Made by a program: the position numbers and the translations under genes. The notes under the pieces are model-generated. The model was not told the DNA's origin. It saw only the letters and a program-made list of their open reading frames with translations, and did not search any database. A stretch of DNA of 6,262 nucleotides from a virus: positions 1 to 6,262 of IMG/VR virus record IMGVR_UViG_3300003103_000001. One strand, written 5' to 3'. The number at the start of each line of letters is the position of its first letter. Position 1 is the stretch's first letter. Positions 1 to 6,262 of this stretch are shown here, piece after piece.

Positions 1-52
1 AAATTTGCCCAAATTTGTCGAGCGTATAATTATCCTTTTCATATTGATTATA
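1..52. repeat. Terminal redundancy (copy 1): identical to 6211..6262, so the contig is circular with a 6,210-nt unit length
   Basis: Base-by-base comparison: aaatttgcccaaatttgtcgagcgtataattatccttttcatattgattata occurs at both ends of the window. Confidence 0.97.
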
Positions 53-201
53 AATTTAATTGTGATGATTTACGCCCTTTTGATATTGTATTTCATGCCG
101 AACGTAAATATATAAATCTGATTCATCAGCATCTCGATGATATCTATAATAATAATGTTTCACTTAAAAGACACACTACCCTAAAATTTCATGAAGATTA
201 A
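1..201 (+). CDS. VP4: Replication initiator protein (HUH endonuclease, VP4 / phiX A-like), C-terminal 66 codons plus stop. This is the continuation of 5098..6262 across the circular junction.
   Basis: Frame 1 is open from base 1 (KFAQICRAYNYPFHIDYKFNCDDLRPFDIVFHAERKYINLIHQHLDDIYNNNVSLKRHTTLKFHED) to TAA at 199..201. Position 6211 (equivalent to position 1) is a first codon position of the ORF starting at 5098, so the two pieces join in frame. Confidence 0.88.
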   Translation, partial: KFAQICRAYNYPFHIDYKFNCDDLRPFDIVFHAERKYINLIHQHLDDIYNNNVSLKRHTTLKFHED

Positions 202-367
202 ACACTCTTTTAGTTGGTGGCTTGGTCTGCTCATTGCTCTTGCCACGGCACTCGCAACTTACCTTTCAAGTTGCTCTACTACCACAAAGTTCAGCGTCAA
301 CGCTGACACTATTGCTAACCCTAATATTCACTTTTCAGATTCCACTAATTTTCAAAAATTTTGGTAA
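191..367 (+). CDS. Small putative lipoprotein, 58 aa (below the ORF-track size cutoff)
   Basis: Manual translation: MKIKHSFSWWLGLLIALATALATYLSSCSTTTKFSVNADTIANPNIHFSDSTNFQKFW, with stop TAA at 365..367. It has a basic N-region (K2, K4, H5), a roughly 20-residue hydrophobic core and the lipobox L-S-S-C (Cys codon 272..274), leaving a 31-aa mature peptide. It fills the only gap between Rep and VP1 and overlaps the Rep 3' end by 11 nt, which is typical microvirus packing. Confidence 0.5.
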   Translation: MKIKHSFSWWLGLLIALATALATYLSSCSTTTKFSVNADTIANPNIHFSDSTNFQKFW

Positions 368-2709: not shown

Positions 2710-3924
2710 ATGTCATTCTTTAAATCTCTTTGGAATGGTATAAAGTCTGTTGGCAAAGGTATAGGCTCTGCTCTTACTGGTAACCCATTAGGCTTTATTT
2801 CTTCTGCTGTCGATATTGGTAAATCTATTTTTGGCTCAAACTCTGCTTCTAAAGAGCAAGCAAAACAAAATGAGTTTAATGCTACTGAAGCCGAAAAAAA
2901 TAGACAATTCCAAGCCGAACAATCCCAAATTCAGCGTGATTGGCAAAGTCCAGTCGCCCAGATGCAACGTTACTCCGAGGCTGGTTTAAATCCTAATTTG
3001 GTCTATGGTCAGATGCAACAAGCCCCAGTCAGTGGTGTTGCAGGTGCGCAAGCGCAATCTGTTGGTATGTCGGGAAAGCAACAACTTGCCCTTGCTCATT
3101 TTAATATTGCTGAAAAAATCTCTGAAATGAAGGTACAGCAAGCTCAAGCAAATGACCTTAATGCTTCTGCCGAGCAAAAACGTGCTGACGCCAAACGTTT
3201 AGGCATTTCCAATGAGTATGATTCTCAAACTTTACAATGGCGTATTACTTCTGCATGGCATAATATGCAATCATCTGCTCACTCCGATAGGCTTGGTGAA
3301 CTTGCTGTCGATGTCCAGGAAATTGAAACATCTATCCGTAAAGCGTTACATGCTAACGATTACGATACTCGTTTTGCCATTGACAATCTGCGCCTTGATA
3401 ATCTTACTAAAATCGCTACTTTAAATAACCTCGAACAAAATACCGATTATATAGCCGAGATGCAAGAGTATGTCGGCTATAACGCTGAAACTGGTCGTAT
3501 TTCTGCGAATGCTCTCGCTTTAAATGCCAGTTCCTACGCTAAGTTAGTGCCTTATTTGATTTATCAAGCGAGTGAGCAAGCGGGTTTATTTCATTCTCAA
3601 GCAGAGCATACCGACAAAGACGCTGAATTATTTCCAGTTCGTGCGCTCAAAACTTTTATGGAAGCATACAAGTTTTACCAAGACGGCACATTTACACAAA
3701 ATGATTTAATTCGTCTTGTCAATCGCAACTTCAACCTTGTCAATTATGGTGTTGAAGAACCTTCGAAAGGTGGTGTTTTTGGTACTGGCTTAAGTTGGCA
3801 ATCCTTTCGCCATGCCGGCTCAGGTAAAAAAATCGATAATAATCGACAAACTCAAGAAGCCGTTGAAAAGAACGGCATTAAATTCATTTATGATTTTCTT
3901 TCCAATTTCACTAATAAAAAGTAA
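2710..3924 (+). CDS. VP2: Minor capsid / DNA pilot protein (Microviridae VP2, phiX H-like), 404 aa from the ATG at 2710
   Basis: In frame with track ORF 2686..3924, but that TTG start lies inside the 2678-2692 hairpin, so the ATG at 2710 (MSFFKSLWNG...) is preferred. The N-terminus is Gly/Ser-rich (GKGIGSALTGNPLGFISSAVDIGKSIFGS) and the centre is Q/A-rich. The block QRDWQSPVAQMQRYSEAGLNPNLVYG matches the conserved AGLNP motif I associate with microvirus VP2 proteins. Confidence 0.85.
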   Translation: MSFFKSLWNGIKSVGKGIGSALTGNPLGFISSAVDIGKSIFGSNSASKEQAKQNEFNATEAEKNRQFQAEQSQIQRDWQSPVAQMQRYSEAGLNPNLVYGQMQQAPVSGVAGAQAQSVGMSGKQQLALAHFNIAEKISEMKVQQAQANDLNASAEQKRADAKRLGISNEYDSQTLQWRITSAWHNMQSSAHSDRLGELAVDVQEIETSIRKALHANDYDTRFAIDNLRLDNLTKIATLNNLEQNTDYIAEMQEYVGYNAETGRISANALALNASSYAKLVPYLIYQASEQAGLFHSQAEHTDKDAELFPVRALKTFMEAYKFYQDGTFTQNDLIRLVNRNFNLVNYGVEEPSKGGVFGTGLSWQSFRHAGSGKKIDNNRQTQEAVEKNGIKFIYDFLSNFTNKK

Positions 3925-3936
3925 TTGGTCTTCGTT

Positions 3937-3955
3937 GGTGGAACGCACCACCTTT
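3937..3955 (+). other. Short hairpin just after the VP2 stop
   Basis: ggtgg (3937-3941), loop aacgca, ccacc (3948-3952), then ttt. Confidence 0.4.
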
Positions 3956-3990
3956 AAACACTCAGATTTTTAAACTTGATTTATCCATTA

Positions 3991-4027
3991 TAAGTGCTAC
4001 GTTGTGAAACGTGGCACTTATTTTATC
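3991..4027 (+). terminator. Strong intrinsic-terminator-like hairpin (13-bp stem, GTGA tetraloop, T-tract)
   Basis: taagtgctacgtt (3991-4003) pairs with aacgtggcactta (4008-4020), with one T:G wobble (3998:4013). The loop gtga (4004-4007) fits GNRA. It is followed by ttttatc (4021-4027). Likely the end of the late VP1-VP2 transcript. Confidence 0.6.
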
Positions 4028-4064
4028 ATCATCGCAGTACACTCACACGCACGGCACCACTTTG

Positions 4065-4131
4065 AGGGGCATTATGCCCCTAAGCAATCGTTAGATTGCG
4101 TTACATTCGAAAATTGCGAAGCAATTTATCG
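4065..4131 (+). other. Cluster of three adjacent stem-loops
   Basis: A: aggggca/tgcccct (4065-4071 / 4075-4081, loop tta). B: gcaatc/gattgc (4084-4089 / 4094-4099, loop gtta). C: aaattgc/gcaattt (4111-4117 / 4121-4127, loop gaa), extended by cga/tcg (4108-4110 / 4129-4131) with A4128 bulged. B and C share the gcaat/attgc arm sequence, so alternative pairings are possible. Confidence 0.6.
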
Positions 4132-4145
4132 CATTGTTTATTCTT

Positions 4146-4161
4146 AAAAAAAAATTTTTTT
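4146..4161. repeat. A9T7 homopolymer palindrome
   Basis: aaaaaaaaa (4146-4154) is followed directly by ttttttt (4155-4161). This could be an easily melted or intrinsically bent element. Confidence 0.9.
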
Positions 4162-4197
4162 CATTATGCCGAGCGCAGCGAAAAATGTACGAAGTGC

Positions 4198-4233
4198 CAG
4201 CCGTAAATAACTACGTAGTAGTTATTATGGCTG
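4198..4233 (+). other. 16-bp bulged hairpin (candidate origin stem-loop)
   Basis: Upper stem: aataactac (4206-4214) pairs with gtagttatt (4218-4226), loop gta. Lower stem: cagccgt (4198-4204) pairs with atggctg (4227-4233), with one G:T wobble. A4205 is bulged. Confidence 0.7.
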
Positions 4234-4237
4234 TGTA

Positions 4238-4263
4238 GCGACAACCCGAAGCGACAACCCGAA
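4238..4263. repeat. Perfect tandem direct repeat, 2 x 13 nt (gcgacaacccgaa), iteron-like
   Basis: 4238-4250 is identical to 4251-4263. The repeat begins 4 nt after the 3' end of the 4198-4233 hairpin. Confidence 0.95.
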
Positions 4264-4271
4264 GAACGCAA
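4261..4271. repeat. Dispersed 11-nt direct repeat gaagaacgcaa, copy 1 (overlaps the end of the second 13-mer)
   Basis: Identical 11-mer at 4389-4399. A partial gaacgca also occurs at 3941-3947, in the hairpin after VP2. Confidence 0.8.
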
Positions 4272-4334
4272 GCAACTTTCGCTCGATGATGATTTAACTA
4301 CTTATATTTACTGCCTTTAGTTATTTGACTATTC

Positions 4335-4342
4335 TATATTTG
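4335..4342 (+). promoter_or_regulatory. Candidate Bacteroidota-type -7 box (TAtaTTTG) without a good -33 element
   Basis: tatatttg matches TAnnTTTG. The 10-mer tatatttgtt is repeated exactly at 4571-4580. No TTTG lies 19-21 nt upstream (only ttta with spacers of 15 or 24 nt), so support is weak. Confidence 0.3.
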
Positions 4343-4388
4343 TTATACACTCACTAACTTTTACTATCTTCTTACCTTACGATGTAAG

Positions 4389-4399
4389 GAAGAACGCAA
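4389..4399. repeat. Dispersed 11-nt direct repeat gaagaacgcaa, copy 2 (spans the 3' end of hairpin D and the start of hairpin E)
   Basis: Identical to 4261-4271. Confidence 0.8.
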
Positions 4400-4514
4400 C
4401 AAGCCACATTTGTTGCAAGTTAGATATTCCGTAACCCCTCTCGTCTTTGTGGACGGAATTTATAACGTGATGTCTATCAGCTTGATGCCGAAACGAAGTG
4501 GAGCGTTATAGTTC

Positions 4515-4550
4515 CCTTGTTATTTATTGTTAAATAATAAGGATATTTTT
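4515..4550 (+). terminator. 28-bp AT-rich palindrome followed by a T-tract (terminator-like; alternatively a protein-binding or recombination site)
   Basis: ccttgttattta (4515-4526) pairs with taaataataagg (4531-4542), with one mismatch and loop ttgt. It is followed by atattttt (4543-4550). Confidence 0.4.
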
Positions 4551-4578
4551 GCGATTTGTCAAAAATGCTGTATATTTG
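4548..4578 (+). promoter_or_regulatory. Bacteroidota-type promoter for the 162-aa ORF / Rep operon
   Basis: TTTG (4548-4551), a 19-nt spacer, then TAtaTTTG (4571-4578). This fits the Bacteroides -33 TTTG / -7 TAnnTTTG consensus at canonical spacing. It lies about 30 nt upstream of the ATG at 4608, and the leader has no Shine-Dalgarno sequence. Confidence 0.55.
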
Positions 4579-4607
4579 TTGCACGTTTCACTAACATTTT
4601 ATAAATC

Positions 4608-5096
4608 ATGTCTAAAAAACAAGAAAAAAACGAATCTAAAACTTATCGAATTGGTCAACATCTTGCCGAGTTTGTCCCTAAATATCAGAGTATTCGGGTG
4701 ACTACAACTATTTTTGATAATACAGGTAAATCTTATGAAAAAGTAGTTGTTGTCGATGACAAAGATAAATTTGAAAAAATGGCTGTTGTTGAAATGTCCC
4801 CCATGATGCTTGAAAATATTTTGGATTCTTGCCCTCAAAATCCCGATAAAAAGCATCGTGATTTCTTCGATAAAGATGTTTCACGCCTTTCCGTCAATCT
4901 CGCTTCCGTGTTAACTCTTTTTCCTCTTTATGACGAAACTATTACTACCGATTCTACTATTTTAGTAATATATAAGTATCGTTATAATGATGTCGATTTC
5001 GTTCTTAAATCGGTAACTCCTCTTGTTACTACCGAACGTGTTGACCAGTTGAAAAAAGATATCTGCACCAACGTTTTGCCTTTTGGCTATAAGTAA
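4608..5096 (+). CDS. Hypothetical protein, 162 aa
   Basis: The ORF starts about 30 nt downstream of the consensus promoter. Its TAA (5094-5096) is 1 nt from the Rep ATG (5098), which suggests co-transcription and translational coupling. I recognise no motif. Confidence 0.72.
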   Translation: MSKKQEKNESKTYRIGQHLAEFVPKYQSIRVTTTIFDNTGKSYEKVVVVDDKDKFEKMAVVEMSPMMLENILDSCPQNPDKKHRDFFDKDVSRLSVNLASVLTLFPLYDETITTDSTILVIYKYRYNDVDFVLKSVTPLVTTERVDQLKKDICTNVLPFGYK

Positions 5097-5097
5097 T

Positions 5098-6262
5098 ATG
5101 TGTAAAGGTCATGGCATATATAAATGTGGCAAGTGCTATTCTTGTAGAGCACGCAAACGCAATGATATAATGATTCGTCTAACCGAGCATTATAGAGGTC
5201 TGTATCGTCATTTCATACAACCTCATATTGCTGTTATGTTTGGTGTTATGACCTTTCACGATAGCTTTATTCCAAATGTTAATTTAAACCTCGATGTTGT
5301 TTGTGAGTGGCAACGCCCAGTACAAAAATTTCTCGCCAATGTTCGTGCTAAATATCCATTTCTCAATTTCCAGTACTTTATAAGTGCTGAATTTGGTGAT
5401 AAAACTGGTAGATTGCATTTGCACCCCCTTTTCATGGTAACTCCTAAATATGAATTGCTCGAGAGTGTTGGAAATTATACAAACCTTTCACAACTTAAAC
5501 GCAAGTTAGATTGTATTTCAACCCTCGAGGACGGCTCACTTTATACTCGTGTTTCTCCTCTTTTTAACTCACACAAGTATGGTGTTACTACTCGTAAACA
5601 CGATAATTTAACAGCATTCCAAGCGTACATTTATGATTTACTGCAAGAGGAGTGGTATTTTGGATTGTCAGATATTGAGCCAGTCCTTTCGGTTAACGCT
5701 GTCAAGTATGTTACTAAATACACACTTAAAGCAACTGACCCTCGTTTTGCTCGTCACTACTGGCGTTTAAAGTCCGATTTTTGGAAACCTCTCAAAAAAT
5801 CCGTTATCCCTCATAATGTCTTACACAAATGTAAATCTAAATCAAAATATGATGTTGGTTTTGATATAGAAAAGCATACAATGTATAAGCAATATTTGAT
5901 TAGTAATGGCATCGGTAAATATTTTTTTGAAACACAACAAGCCCATGAACTTCTGCACAATCTCGCTTTTGTCGAGCAACGTGTTAAAGTTCCCTTAAAT
6001 TTACATGATGATATCGAAGTTTCTTTAATACGTCCGAATAAACGTCTTGTTTATCGTGACCCCACATATATCGGAAAAGATAAAAATGAGTATTCTTTGC
6101 CTACCTCTTTTAAAAGCCATATTTTGGACCTTTATTTCGGTAATTTCACTCCTGAACGTGCTGTTGTTGGTCAATCTCTACAATTTCAGTTCAAATTATC
6201 GAGCATTTGCAAATTTGCCCAAATTTGTCGAGCGTATAATTATCCTTTTCATATTGATTATA
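5098..6262 (+). CDS. VP4: Replication initiator protein (HUH rolling-circle endonuclease, Microviridae VP4 / phiX A-like). It runs off the window end and continues at 1..201 (437 aa total).
   Basis: Not in the ORF track because there is no stop inside the window. I translated all 388 codons and found no stop. N-terminal Cys cluster: MCKGHGIYKCGKCYSCR. Motif I-like: FGVMTF. HUH motif: GRLHLHPLF (5407-5433). Dual-tyrosine motif: KYVTKYTLK (Tyr codons 5707-5709 and 5719-5721), the YxxKY arrangement of the phiX174 A protein. A downstream SNGIGKY block is also present. Confidence 0.93.
   Translation, partial: MCKGHGIYKCGKCYSCRARKRNDIMIRLTEHYRGLYRHFIQPHIAVMFGVMTFHDSFIPNVNLNLDVVCEWQRPVQKFLANVRAKYPFLNFQYFISAEFGDKTGRLHLHPLFMVTPKYELLESVGNYTNLSQLKRKLDCISTLEDGSLYTRVSPLFNSHKYGVTTRKHDNLTAFQAYIYDLLQEEWYFGLSDIEPVLSVNAVKYVTKYTLKATDPRFARHYWRLKSDFWKPLKKSVIPHNVLHKCKSKSKYDVGFDIEKHTMYKQYLISNGIGKYFFETQQAHELLHNLAFVEQRVKVPLNLHDDIEVSLIRPNKRLVYRDPTYIGKDKNEYSLPTSFKSHILDLYFGNFTPERAVVGQSLQFQFKLSSICKFAQICRAYNYPFHIDY
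6211..6262. repeat. Terminal redundancy (copy 2), identical to 1..52
   Basis: Exact 52/52 identity with the window start. Confidence 0.97.

What the first reader, a model, noticed from the sequence alone, without database searches (positions are those of the whole stretch)
191..367. Unlisted 58-codon lipoprotein ORF overlapping the Rep stop: candidate lysis or superinfection-exclusion factor
The ORF encodes a textbook lipoprotein signal peptide: MKIKH, a hydrophobic core, then the lipobox LSSC with Cys28. The mature peptide is 31 aa (CSTTTKFSVNADTIANPNIHFSDSTNFQKFW). It sits exactly in the Rep-VP1 gap and overlaps Rep by 11 nt. I recognise no lysis gene in this genome, and outside the phiX group (protein E) microvirus lysis genes are largely unknown. 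Small phage lipoproteins have known roles as o-spanins (Rz1) and as receptor-blocking exclusion proteins (T5 Llp, Cor of phi80/N15). A lipoprotein in a 6-kb ssDNA phage would be a new accessory function. The +2 to +5 residues are S-T-T-T, with none of the acidic residues that characterise the Bacteroides surface-export signal, which suggests a periplasm-facing location.
Basis: partly seen in the sequence, partly recalled or inferred. Interest (0 to 1): 0.65.

Follow-up and report, generated by a model that had tools for sequence, protein, structure and literature searches.

The report
Conserved small lipoprotein gene in microviruses
A tiny gene between the replication and capsid genes of this 6.2-kb single-stranded DNA phage is real, is the most strongly conserved gene in the genome, and encodes a 31-residue lipid-anchored peptide exported to the host cell envelope, making it the best candidate for this phage group's unknown host-lysis (or infection-blocking) function.

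Summary
ORF 191-367 (58 codons) overlaps the Rep stop by 11 nt and encodes MKIKH, a hydrophobic helix, the lipobox LSSC (Cys28) and a 31-aa mature peptide.

It is a real gene. In 16 distinct relatives pN/pS is 0.13 in this frame, against 1.6 and 3.0 in the other two frames. That is lower than VP1 (0.34) and Rep (0.52) from the same genomes. The peptide stays 84-90% identical where VP1 is 58-60% and Rep 34-35% identical.

A profile search defines an unnamed family of about 80 small proteins, all on contigs of 6.6 kb or less. The lipobox Cys is invariant, position -1 is always S/A/G, no member has an acidic residue at +2..+6, and the mature peptide is 31 aa in most members. The family occurs in lineages with only 30% VP1 identity and at three different genome positions.

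There is no match in Pfam, PHROGs, NCBIfam, PADLOC or PDB, and I found no literature on it.

The function is inferred, not shown. I favour a periplasm-acting lytic or release lipopeptide, closest in anatomy to colicin lysis proteins. Superinfection exclusion is the main rival. A Bacteroidota host is plausible but not proven.

The parts
191..367 (+). Small lipoprotein gene (58 codons plus stop)
   Evidence: ORF. In-frame pN/pS is 0.13-0.17 against 1.6 and 3.0 in the other frames. Homologues in 59 clusters at 90% identity.
191..201 (+). 11-nt overlap of the lipoprotein start with the end of Rep (Rep stop TAA 199-201)
   Evidence: The same 11-nt overlap is called in L004, L005, L008-L021.
191..271 (+). 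Signal peptide, codons 1-27: n-region MKIKH, h-region WWLGLLIALATALATY containing G12xxxA16xxxA20
   Evidence: Hydrophobicity. AlphaFold helix 4-27. 16 of the 28 precursor positions up to and including Cys28 are invariant in 19 close homologues.
263..274 (+). Lipobox L25-S26-S27-C28
   Evidence: Cys is invariant in alignments A1, A2 and A5. Position -1 is S/A/G in all 79 parsed family members, and the three unparsed members also have S.
272..364 (+). Mature 31-aa lipopeptide CSTTTKFSVNADTIANPNIHFSDSTNFQKFW. Family motif: C-[ST]-[ST]-x3-F-S-[IV]-N-A-[DE]-x-[IM]-x-N-P-x-I-x-[YF]-x-D-S-T-x4-[FW]
   Evidence: pN/pS 0.078. D50 and S51 invariant; S35, A38, P44, I46 and T52 at least 90% conserved. 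Length is 31 aa in 55 of 79 members. No confident fold predicted (pLDDT 55-58).
4548..4578 (+). Candidate Bacteroides-type promoter (TTTG-N19-TATATTTG), 29 nt before the 162-aa ORF. Probable start of the transcription unit p162-Rep-lipoprotein-VP1-p149-VP2
   Evidence: 2 matches against 0.53 expected, not significant by count. The same motif sits at the same place in L005, L012/13, L016 and L018-21, with variants in L010 and L014. Inference only.
3990..4021 (+). Terminator-like hairpin (14 pairs, then a T-run), 66 nt after the VP2 stop. Probable end of the same transcription unit
   Evidence: Inference only.

Best explanation
ORF 191-367 is a real, co-transcribed phage gene. Its product is exported by Sec, lipidated on Cys28 and cleaved by signal peptidase II. 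[quoted passage not shown]

The functional part is the mature peptide. I read it as a strand-turn(NPN)-strand segment that is disordered until it binds a conserved host envelope component.

The most likely role is to compromise the envelope at the end of infection so that virions are released. That would be single-gene lysis by a small lipopeptide, working like colicin lysis / bacteriocin release proteins rather than like phiX174 E.

Shown: the gene is real, the constraint is strong, the lipoprotein signature is kept family-wide, the gene is confined to microvirus-sized contigs, and there is no other membrane-targeted or lytic gene product in the genome.

Inferred: actual lipidation, localisation, the hairpin, the target and the lysis role.

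Sub-confidences: real gene 0.97; SPII lipoprotein 0.8; lysis/release role 0.4-0.45.
For: Coding and constraint. pN/pS is 0.13 in frame against 1.6 and 3.0 out of frame. Variable sites by codon position are 21/8/45. The gene is more constrained than VP1 (0.34) and Rep (0.52) at equal pS of about 0.55-0.6. The mature peptide is 29/31 identical between the window and L009, where VP1 is 59% and Rep 35% identical.

Lipoprotein signature. The invariant Cys follows a hydrophobic stretch in all 82 small members. Position -1 is always S/A/G, +2 and +3 are S/T in 76 of 79, and no member has an acidic residue at +2..+6. The only weak database matches are to the N-termini of lipoprotein families.

The mature part, not the membrane segment, is what is kept across deep lineages. 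Signal peptides vary in sequence, and the Cys position ranges from 17 to 79, while the mature length stays at 31 aa. So the site of action is beyond the inner membrane.

Only candidate in the genome. There is no endolysin, peptidase or holin match. Only this product has a transmembrane-like segment. The two hydrophobic overprinted ORFs are unsupported.

Independence from capsid divergence argues for a target other than the phage's own receptor.

Anatomy matches colicin lysis proteins: a 47-aa precursor, a 19-aa signal peptide, a 28-aa mature lipoprotein, lethal when over-expressed, and acting through outer-membrane phospholipase A (PMC2896534).
Against: There is no functional data of any kind.

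There is no sequence relation to Lysis_col or any other family.

Known single-gene lysis proteins evolve fast and de novo and are often embedded in other genes (PMC7693330, title and abstract). This gene is unusually conserved and has its own space.

The family is rare. tblastn found it in only 3 phage records, although 2684 records carry a related VP1. Three Parabacteroides microviruses have no lipoprotein-like small ORF. So it cannot be the general microvirus lysis solution.

AlphaFold gives no structure for the mature part.

No SPII predictor could be run.
Confidence: 0.42

Rival explanations
1. Superinfection-exclusion or receptor-masking lipoprotein. [quoted passage not shown] This would protect the infected cell and stop progeny from being wasted on debris.
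For: It is a small phage lipoprotein with no surface-export signal, the same class as Llp (PMC9586334). In the window lineage it sits next to the capsid, which is the receptor-binding gene. Its patchy distribution among microviruses is typical of accessory exclusion genes.
Against: The mature peptide is nearly invariant (29/31) across phages whose VP1 is only 58-60% identical, and it is recognisable where VP1 is 30% identical. A receptor-specific blocker would be expected to track the receptor-binding protein. Adjacency to VP1 is not kept in L028, L030 and L032. Constraint stronger than on capsid and Rep is unusual for an exclusion gene. There is no match to Llp, Cor or PADLOC models.
Confidence: 0.25
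2. Another envelope-directed accessory role. Examples are blocking a periplasmic or outer-membrane host defence, or altering vesiculation, surface structures or nutrient transporters during infection, without being the lysis effector.
For: The same localisation evidence applies. The target is unknown. The peptide is disordered alone, which suits a binder of some host protein.
Against: No similarity to any known counter-defence or defence protein. Such genes are usually variable, whereas this one is the most conserved gene in the genome.
Confidence: 0.15
3. Not a cleaved lipoprotein. Instead the N-terminal helix is a permanent membrane anchor or the active element: a holin-like or E-like membrane peptide, or a stable signal peptide that is itself toxic.
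For: In the window's subfamily the helix is unusually conserved: WWLGL.I..ATAL.TYL is invariant, with GxxxAxxxA. Three distant members (P0046, P0048, P0053) keep this helix with a different mature part. One subfamily has a 20-30-aa N-terminal extension that is atypical for signal peptides. Stable signal peptides of bacteriocin release proteins are known to be functional (references listed in PMC5727409).
Against: Across the whole family the helix sequence is not conserved, while the Cys, the small residue at -1 and the mature peptide are. That pattern is the reverse of phiX174 E, where the membrane domain carries the function (my own knowledge). A dual role (lipopeptide plus active signal peptide) is compatible with the main explanation.
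Confidence: 0.1
4. Chance ORF or conserved non-coding DNA (for example a regulatory region between Rep and VP1) that happens to be open.
For: It is short, unannotated in the closest GenBank record, and lies in an intergenic position.
Against: Substitutions are concentrated at third positions (21/8/45). pN/pS is 0.13 in frame and above 1.6 out of frame, at near-saturated synonymous divergence. The frame is open in all relatives. Homologues occur at other genome positions in other lineages.
Confidence: 0.02

Closest known systems
Colicin lysis proteins / bacteriocin release proteins (Pfam PF02402 Lysis_col; e.g. ColE7 Cel, pCloDF13 BRP)
   Same: A very small lipoprotein precursor (47 aa with a 19-aa signal peptide against 58 aa with 27). 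The mature lipopeptide is about 28 aa against 31 aa, and is polar and rich in S/T/N/D. It is exported by Sec, lipid-modified and cleaved, and acts from within the envelope to make the cell leaky or lyse so that a macromolecular cargo is released (PMC2896534). Signal peptides of some members are stable and active (references).
   Different: No sequence similarity (no PF02402 hit even at E up to 10). It is encoded by a phage rather than a Col plasmid. The probable host is Bacteroidota rather than Enterobacteriaceae. Dependence on phospholipase A is unknown. Function is untested.
Phage T5 Llp and the Cor proteins of phi80/N15 (superinfection-exclusion lipoproteins)
   Same: A small phage-encoded lipoprotein sent to the periplasmic side of the envelope (PMC9586334). 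In the window lineage the gene is adjacent to the receptor-binding gene.
   Different: Llp is about twice as long and folds into a domain (my own knowledge). There is no sequence similarity. Conservation here does not track the capsid protein.
o-spanins (lambda Rz1 and relatives)
   Same: A small outer-membrane-type lipoprotein encoded by a phage and used in lysis.
   Different: Spanins need an i-spanin partner, an endolysin and a holin, and none is present. Rz1-type mature parts are proline-rich with Cys for disulfide-linked dimers (my own knowledge). This mature peptide has one Pro and no Cys beyond the lipidated one.
phiX174 protein E and other single-gene lysis proteins (Sgl) of small phages
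   Same: A small genome with no muralytic enzyme, so one small membrane-targeted protein is the plausible lysis agent.
   Different: E is overprinted inside gene D, is not a lipoprotein, and acts through its N-terminal membrane domain on MraY (my own knowledge). Here the gene has its own space, and the conserved part is the exported peptide, not the membrane segment. Sgl genes evolve fast (PMC7693330); this one is highly conserved.
Entericidin B (small bacteriolytic lipoprotein of Enterobacteriaceae; my own knowledge)
   Same: A mature lipopeptide of about 25-30 residues that is bacteriolytic when expressed.
   Different: It is chromosomal and paired with an antidote lipoprotein. There is no sequence similarity (no Pfam or NCBIfam hit).

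Membership tests
Bacterial lipoproteins (Lgt/Lsp substrates) | Positively charged n-region followed by an uncharged hydrophobic h-region | tested here: met
   K2 and K4; W9-Y24 uncharged, KD19 1.66, AlphaFold helix 4-27. All 82 family members have a hydrophobic stretch before the Cys.
Bacterial lipoproteins (Lgt/Lsp substrates) | Lipobox [LVI][ASTVI][GAS]C with an invariant Cys | tested here: met
   L25-S26-S27-C28. Cys is invariant in A1, A2 and A5. Position -1 is S/A/G in all members. 47 of 79 fit the strict motif, and the rest deviate only at -3 or -2.
Bacterial lipoproteins (Lgt/Lsp substrates) | SPII call by a trained predictor (SignalP 6, LipoP) | not testable with these tools
   No such predictor was on hand.
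Bacterial lipoproteins (Lgt/Lsp substrates) | Diacylglyceryl modification and globomycin-sensitive cleavage | not testable with these tools
   Needs an experiment.
Colicin lysis / bacteriocin release proteins (PF02402) | Sequence membership in the family profile | tested here: not met
   No PF02402 hit for the window peptide or any of the 44 members scanned at E up to 10.
Colicin lysis / bacteriocin release proteins (PF02402) | Precursor of about 45-52 aa giving a lipopeptide of about 28-33 aa | tested here: met
   58-aa precursor and 31-aa mature part. Comparison values are from PMC2896534.
Colicin lysis / bacteriocin release proteins (PF02402) | Last gene of a colicin-immunity-lysis operon on a plasmid | tested here: not met
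   The context is Rep-lipoprotein-VP1 of a microvirus.
Colicin lysis / bacteriocin release proteins (PF02402) | Causes quasi-lysis through outer-membrane phospholipase A | not testable with these tools
   Needs an experiment.
o-spanin (Rz1-like) | Partner i-spanin gene (type II membrane protein) adjacent to or embedding it | tested here: not met
   No other gene product has a membrane segment. The overprinted hydrophobic ORFs are unsupported.
o-spanin (Rz1-like) | Endolysin and holin in the same genome | tested here: not met
   No such hits in Pfam or PHROGs for any of the six products.
Superinfection-exclusion lipoproteins (Llp, Cor) | Sequence relation to Llp or Cor families | tested here: not met
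   No Pfam, PHROGs, NCBIfam or PADLOC hit.
Superinfection-exclusion lipoproteins (Llp, Cor) | Genetic linkage to, and co-variation with, the receptor-binding protein | tested here: inconclusive
   It is adjacent to VP1 in the window lineage and in capybara microviruses but not in L028, L030 and L032. Its sequence does not track VP1 divergence.
Superinfection-exclusion lipoproteins (Llp, Cor) | Blocks adsorption or DNA entry of the same phage | not testable with these tools
   Needs a cultured host.
phiX174 E-type lysis protein | Overprinted in another gene, with function carried by a conserved N-terminal membrane domain | tested here: not met
   The overlap with Rep is only 11 nt. Across the family the membrane segment varies while the exported part is conserved.

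The most novel reading that the evidence does not exclude
The 31-residue lipopeptide is a phage 'protein antibiotic' that binds a conserved, essential, periplasm-exposed machine of Bacteroidota. Candidates are outer-membrane protein or LPS insertion, lipoprotein trafficking, or a peptidoglycan synthase or its activator. On this reading it would be the first lysis mechanism defined for microviruses outside the phiX174 group and the first lipoprotein-type single-gene lysis protein. Its extreme conservation would reflect the conservation of that target.
Probability: 0.3. Interest if true: 0.85.

Novelty: new variant of a known kind. Interest (0 to 1): 0.66.

Why it matters
How microviruses outside the phiX174 group get out of their hosts is a long-standing gap. 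Roux et al. 2012 (PMC3394797) state that phiX174 is the only microvirus with a known lysis mechanism. Kirchberger et al. 2022 (PMC9239249) list only peptidase-type accessory genes, plus small peptides of unknown function that are shared between microviral families.

This finding offers a concrete, short, synthesisable candidate: a family of about 80 small proteins with a clear export and lipidation signature, and the strongest constraint in the genome. It can be tested directly by expression in gut Bacteroidales.

If it is lytic, its target would be a new antibacterial vulnerability in a dominant gut phylum. If it is an exclusion factor, it would be the first described for ssDNA phages and would point to their receptor. 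Either way, it should be annotated in microvirus genomes, where it is currently missed or labelled hypothetical.

Tried and rejected
1. Family assignment by profile. Pfam, PHROGs, NCBIfam, PADLOC and PDB sequence searches found nothing significant. The weak hits are to lipoprotein N-termini only.

2. Structure. AlphaFold2 with a 44-sequence alignment gave only the signal-peptide helix. The mature part has pLDDT 55-58, so no fold search was run.

3. Relatives in IMG/VR and GTDB genomes. VP1 alone and the VP1 alignment found none. The family alignment was too variable for the tool. A degenerate DNA pattern for INADxIxNPxIx[YF]xD gave 0 viral hits and 3 genome hits, all chance matches inside large proteins without a lipobox. 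So no prophage copy and no host assignment was obtained. The same pattern in JGI metagenomes gave 3 true microvirus loci (L026, L028, L030) and 3 chance hits.

4. Other lysis candidates. A 92-codon hydrophobic ORF overprinted on Rep (6047-6210 plus 1-115) stays open in 8 close relatives, but its frame has pN/pS 1.15 against 0.12 for the Rep frame. A 70-codon ORF inside VP2 is broken in L019 and L020. Both were rejected.

5. Spanin and E-like readings were rejected (see the membership tests).

6. A C-terminal aromatic residue as a mimic of an outer-membrane-protein sorting signal. F or W is last in 53 of 79 members, but 21 end in K or R after a 2-4-residue extension. I do not rely on this.

7. 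Similarity of the mature motif to blade repeats of BNR_4/SBBP beta-propeller proteins. I treat it as a short strand-turn-strand resemblance, not homology.

8. Analogous lipoprotein ORFs in Parabacteroides microviruses: none found.

9. Rfam: no RNA family in the window.

Full report
**What the window is.** The 6262-base window is a circular microvirus genome written with a 52-nt terminal overlap (bases 1-52 repeat at 6211-6262). The true length is 6210 nt.

All genes are on the + strand:
- a 162-aa ORF (4608-5096);
- Rep (5098-6210 plus 1-201, 437 aa; PF23343, phrog_942);
- the small ORF (191-367);
- the major capsid protein VP1 (417-2219; PF02305, phrog_514);
- a 149-aa ORF (2222-2671);
- the pilot protein VP2 (ATG 2710-3924; pilot-protein PHROGs).

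No product matches an endolysin, peptidase or holin.

**The observation.** It is correct in every detail. The ATG is at 191 and the Rep stop TAA at 199-201, giving an 11-nt overlap. The ORF has 58 codons and the stop is at 365-367, 49 nt before VP1. The product reads MKIKH / SFSWWLGLLIALATALATY / LSSC / STTTKFSVNADTIANPNIHFSDSTNFQKFW. It has two lysines in the n-region and an uncharged hydrophobic stretch. That stretch is the only membrane-like segment among the six products and is predicted as a helix, residues 4-27. The lipobox fits [LVI][ASTVI][GAS]C, and the mature part is 31 residues. A lipoprotein-signal regular expression hits only this ORF on either strand of the genome.

**It is a gene.** A search of 5.8 billion proteins found 18 clusters at 63-91% identity. 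The window's exact peptide is on 13 public contigs, in a cluster of 42 members, none of which is named.

I fetched 20 related contigs holding 15 further distinct DNA versions of the ORF. Results for the 58-codon group:
- pooled pN/pS is 0.135 in the ORF frame, against 1.64 and 3.05 in the two shifted frames;
- it is 0.123 with the Rep overlap left out;
- variable sites by codon position are 21, 8 and 45.

Synonymous divergence is high (pS about 0.55), so the conservation reflects selection rather than recent shared descent. Over the same genomes the ratio is 0.17 for this gene, 0.34 for VP1 and 0.52 for Rep. Against L009, L004 and L014 the peptide is 84-90% identical where VP1 is 58-60% identical; Rep, available only for L009 and L002, is 34-35% identical. 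The mature part differs at 2 of 31 positions between the window and L009. This is the most constrained gene in these genomes.

**The family.** A profile search of 1.84 billion cluster representatives and a profile search of the 90% clusters give about 80 small proteins of 41-109 aa. All are unnamed or 'hypothetical', and all lie on contigs no longer than about 6.6 kb.

Family-wide features:
- The Cys is the only residue invariant in the widest alignment; D50 and S51 are invariant and S35, A38, P44, I46 and T52 near-invariant in the 44-sequence alignment.
- The residue before the Cys is S, A or G in every member.
- Positions +2 and +3 are S/T in 76 of 79 members.
- No member has D or E at +2..+6.
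- The mature peptide is exactly 31 aa in 55 of 79 members (range 30-35).

The consensus is C-[ST]-[ST]-x3-F-S-[IV]-N-A-[DE]-x-[IM]-x-N-P-x-I-x-[YF]-x-D-S-T-x4-[FW]. By contrast, the signal peptides differ widely in sequence and length between subfamilies. The conserved element is therefore the exported peptide. This pattern is what one expects of a lipoprotein whose function lies in the mature part. It is the reverse of phiX174 E.

**Where the gene sits.** There are three arrangements:
- Rep-lipoprotein-VP1. This is found in the window and its relatives and in GenBank MT135442.1, where the ORF at 3997-4173 is not annotated. It is also found, with an extra small ORF between Rep and the lipoprotein gene, in two 4.6-kb capybara microviruses, where the gene is annotated as a hypothetical protein, QCS36298.1.
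- Lipoprotein-VP2-Rep-VP1, in L030 and L032.
- Lipoprotein-Rep-VP2, in L028.

The VP1 proteins of the capybara microvirus L022, L030 and L032 are only 30-31% identical to the window's, while the lipoprotein is 38-47% identical and keeps the 31-aa mature length. The gene is thus an old, portable module of several gut microvirus lineages. It is still rare overall. tblastn finds it in 3 records of the phage collection, although 2684 records carry a related VP1. Three Parabacteroides microviruses have no lipoprotein-like small ORF.

**Host and expression (inference).** No gene in the window has a Shine-Dalgarno-like sequence within 25 nt of its start. A match to the Bacteroides promoter consensus (TTTG-N19-TAnnTTTG; the consensus is from my own knowledge) lies at 4548-4578, 29 nt before the first gene of the gene string. 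It sits at the end of the only long ORF-poor stretch. The same motif is in the same place in the close relatives, and variants occur in L010 and L014. By count alone it is not significant. A 14-pair hairpin with a T-run follows VP2 at 3990-4021. The nearest VP1 proteins with an assigned host are from Parabacteroides phages, at 31% identity. The GenBank relatives come from pig and capybara faeces. Together this fits a Bacteroidota host and a single transcription unit that includes the lipoprotein gene, but I found no prophage copy or other direct host link.

**What it does.** Nothing in Pfam, PHROGs, NCBIfam, PADLOC or the PDB matches. AlphaFold leaves the mature part unstructured. The alternation of hydrophobic residues (F33, V35, A37; I46, F48) around an N-P-N turn suggests a hairpin that forms on binding. 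So does the resemblance to a strand-turn-strand blade motif of beta-propeller proteins.

Four facts weigh on function:
- The product is exported and has no surface-export signal.
- It is the only envelope-directed product of a phage that has no recognisable lysis gene, and the two hydrophobic overprinted ORFs fail conservation tests.
- It is more conserved than capsid and Rep.
- Its sequence does not follow capsid divergence.

The third and fourth points argue for a conserved host target unrelated to the phage's own receptor. I therefore favour a lysis or release function over receptor masking.

The closest known anatomy is the colicin lysis / bacteriocin release lipoprotein: a 47-aa precursor, a 19-aa signal peptide, a 28-aa mature lipopeptide, lethal when over-produced, acting via outer-membrane phospholipase A (PMC2896534). 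This is a likeness of mechanism only, because the sequence test for that family fails.

Against the lysis reading: the family is rare among microviruses, known single-gene lysis proteins evolve fast (PMC7693330), and there is no experiment. Superinfection exclusion in the manner of T5 Llp (PMC9586334) is the main rival. An active membrane helix is a minor one. It is suggested by the invariant WWLGL.I..ATAL.TYL with GxxxAxxxA in the window's subfamily, and by three distant members that keep the helix but not the mature motif.

**Novelty.** Searches of the paper library found no description of a microvirus lipoprotein. Roux et al. 2012 say that phiX174 is the only microvirus with a known lysis mechanism. 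Kirchberger et al. 2022 report only peptidase-type lysis-associated genes, plus small peptides of about 65 aa of unknown function shared between families. Small phage lipoproteins are a known kind. This is a new sequence family of them, in a phage group where none had been described, with an untested role. I rate it a new variant of a known kind, with interest 0.66.

Noticed in passing
window 1-52 and 6211-6262: Exact 52-nt terminal repeat. It is the assembly overlap of a circular genome, so the true length is 6210 nt, and ORFs that appear to run off the window ends (Rep) close across the junction.
   Followed up: yes
window 3925-4607: A 683-nt stretch without a supported gene. It holds a 14-pair terminator-like hairpin at 3990-4021 right after VP2, and a Bacteroides-type promoter consensus at 4548-4578 that is conserved in relatives. 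What the remaining ~500 nt do (origin of replication? small ORFs?) was not examined.
   Followed up: partly
window 6047-6210 plus 1-115 (frame +2 relative to Rep): A 92-codon, very hydrophobic ORF overprinted on the 3' part of Rep. It is open in 8 close relatives, but pN/pS is 1.15 in its frame against 0.12 in the Rep frame, so it is not supported as a gene. It could not be tested in divergent relatives.
   Followed up: yes
window genes compared with L002, L004, L009, L014: Very uneven divergence of modules between the same pairs of genomes: Rep 34-35%, VP1 58-60%, lipoprotein 66-90% identity. Conversely, in genomes with 98-99% identical VP1 the lipoprotein is only 84-88% identical, with the changes mostly in the n-region. 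This suggests module exchange or very different constraints.
   Followed up: partly
proteins P0024, P0028, P0030, P0037, P0045, P0054, P0058: The mature-peptide motif SINADxIxNPxIxYxDSTN matches, 5-7 times per protein, the blade repeat SIALDSxxNPHISYYDxTNxDLKYA of large BNR_4/SBBP beta-propeller proteins that also carry PKD, dockerin or fn3 domains. This is probably a shared strand-turn-strand motif, not homology.
   Followed up: partly
proteins P0025, P0029, P0032, P0034, P0067, P0069, P0071, P0082 (L032 422-655): A subfamily carries a 20-30-residue amphipathic N-terminal extension before the hydrophobic segment, putting the Cys at position 45-50. It is either a cytoplasmic add-on to the signal peptide or a mis-called start. 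The basic residues lie just before the hydrophobic stretch, which favours the long form.
   Followed up: no
proteins P0046, P0048, P0053: Three small proteins keep the window-type helix (WWLGL/GxxxAxxxA...TY) and a Cys but have a different mature sequence. The helix may have a role of its own in this subfamily.
   Followed up: no
window 4608-5096 and 2222-2671: The 162-aa and 149-aa products have no significant match in Pfam, PHROGs or PADLOC (one weak PHROG hit, E 0.006, for the 149-aa product). The 149-aa ORF sits where scaffold-like proteins are expected, downstream of VP1. Both are conserved in length in relatives.
   Followed up: no
L001 (MT135442.1) 3997-4173: The closest GenBank genome has only 3 annotated genes. 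The lipoprotein ORF, and probably others, are unannotated there.
   Followed up: yes
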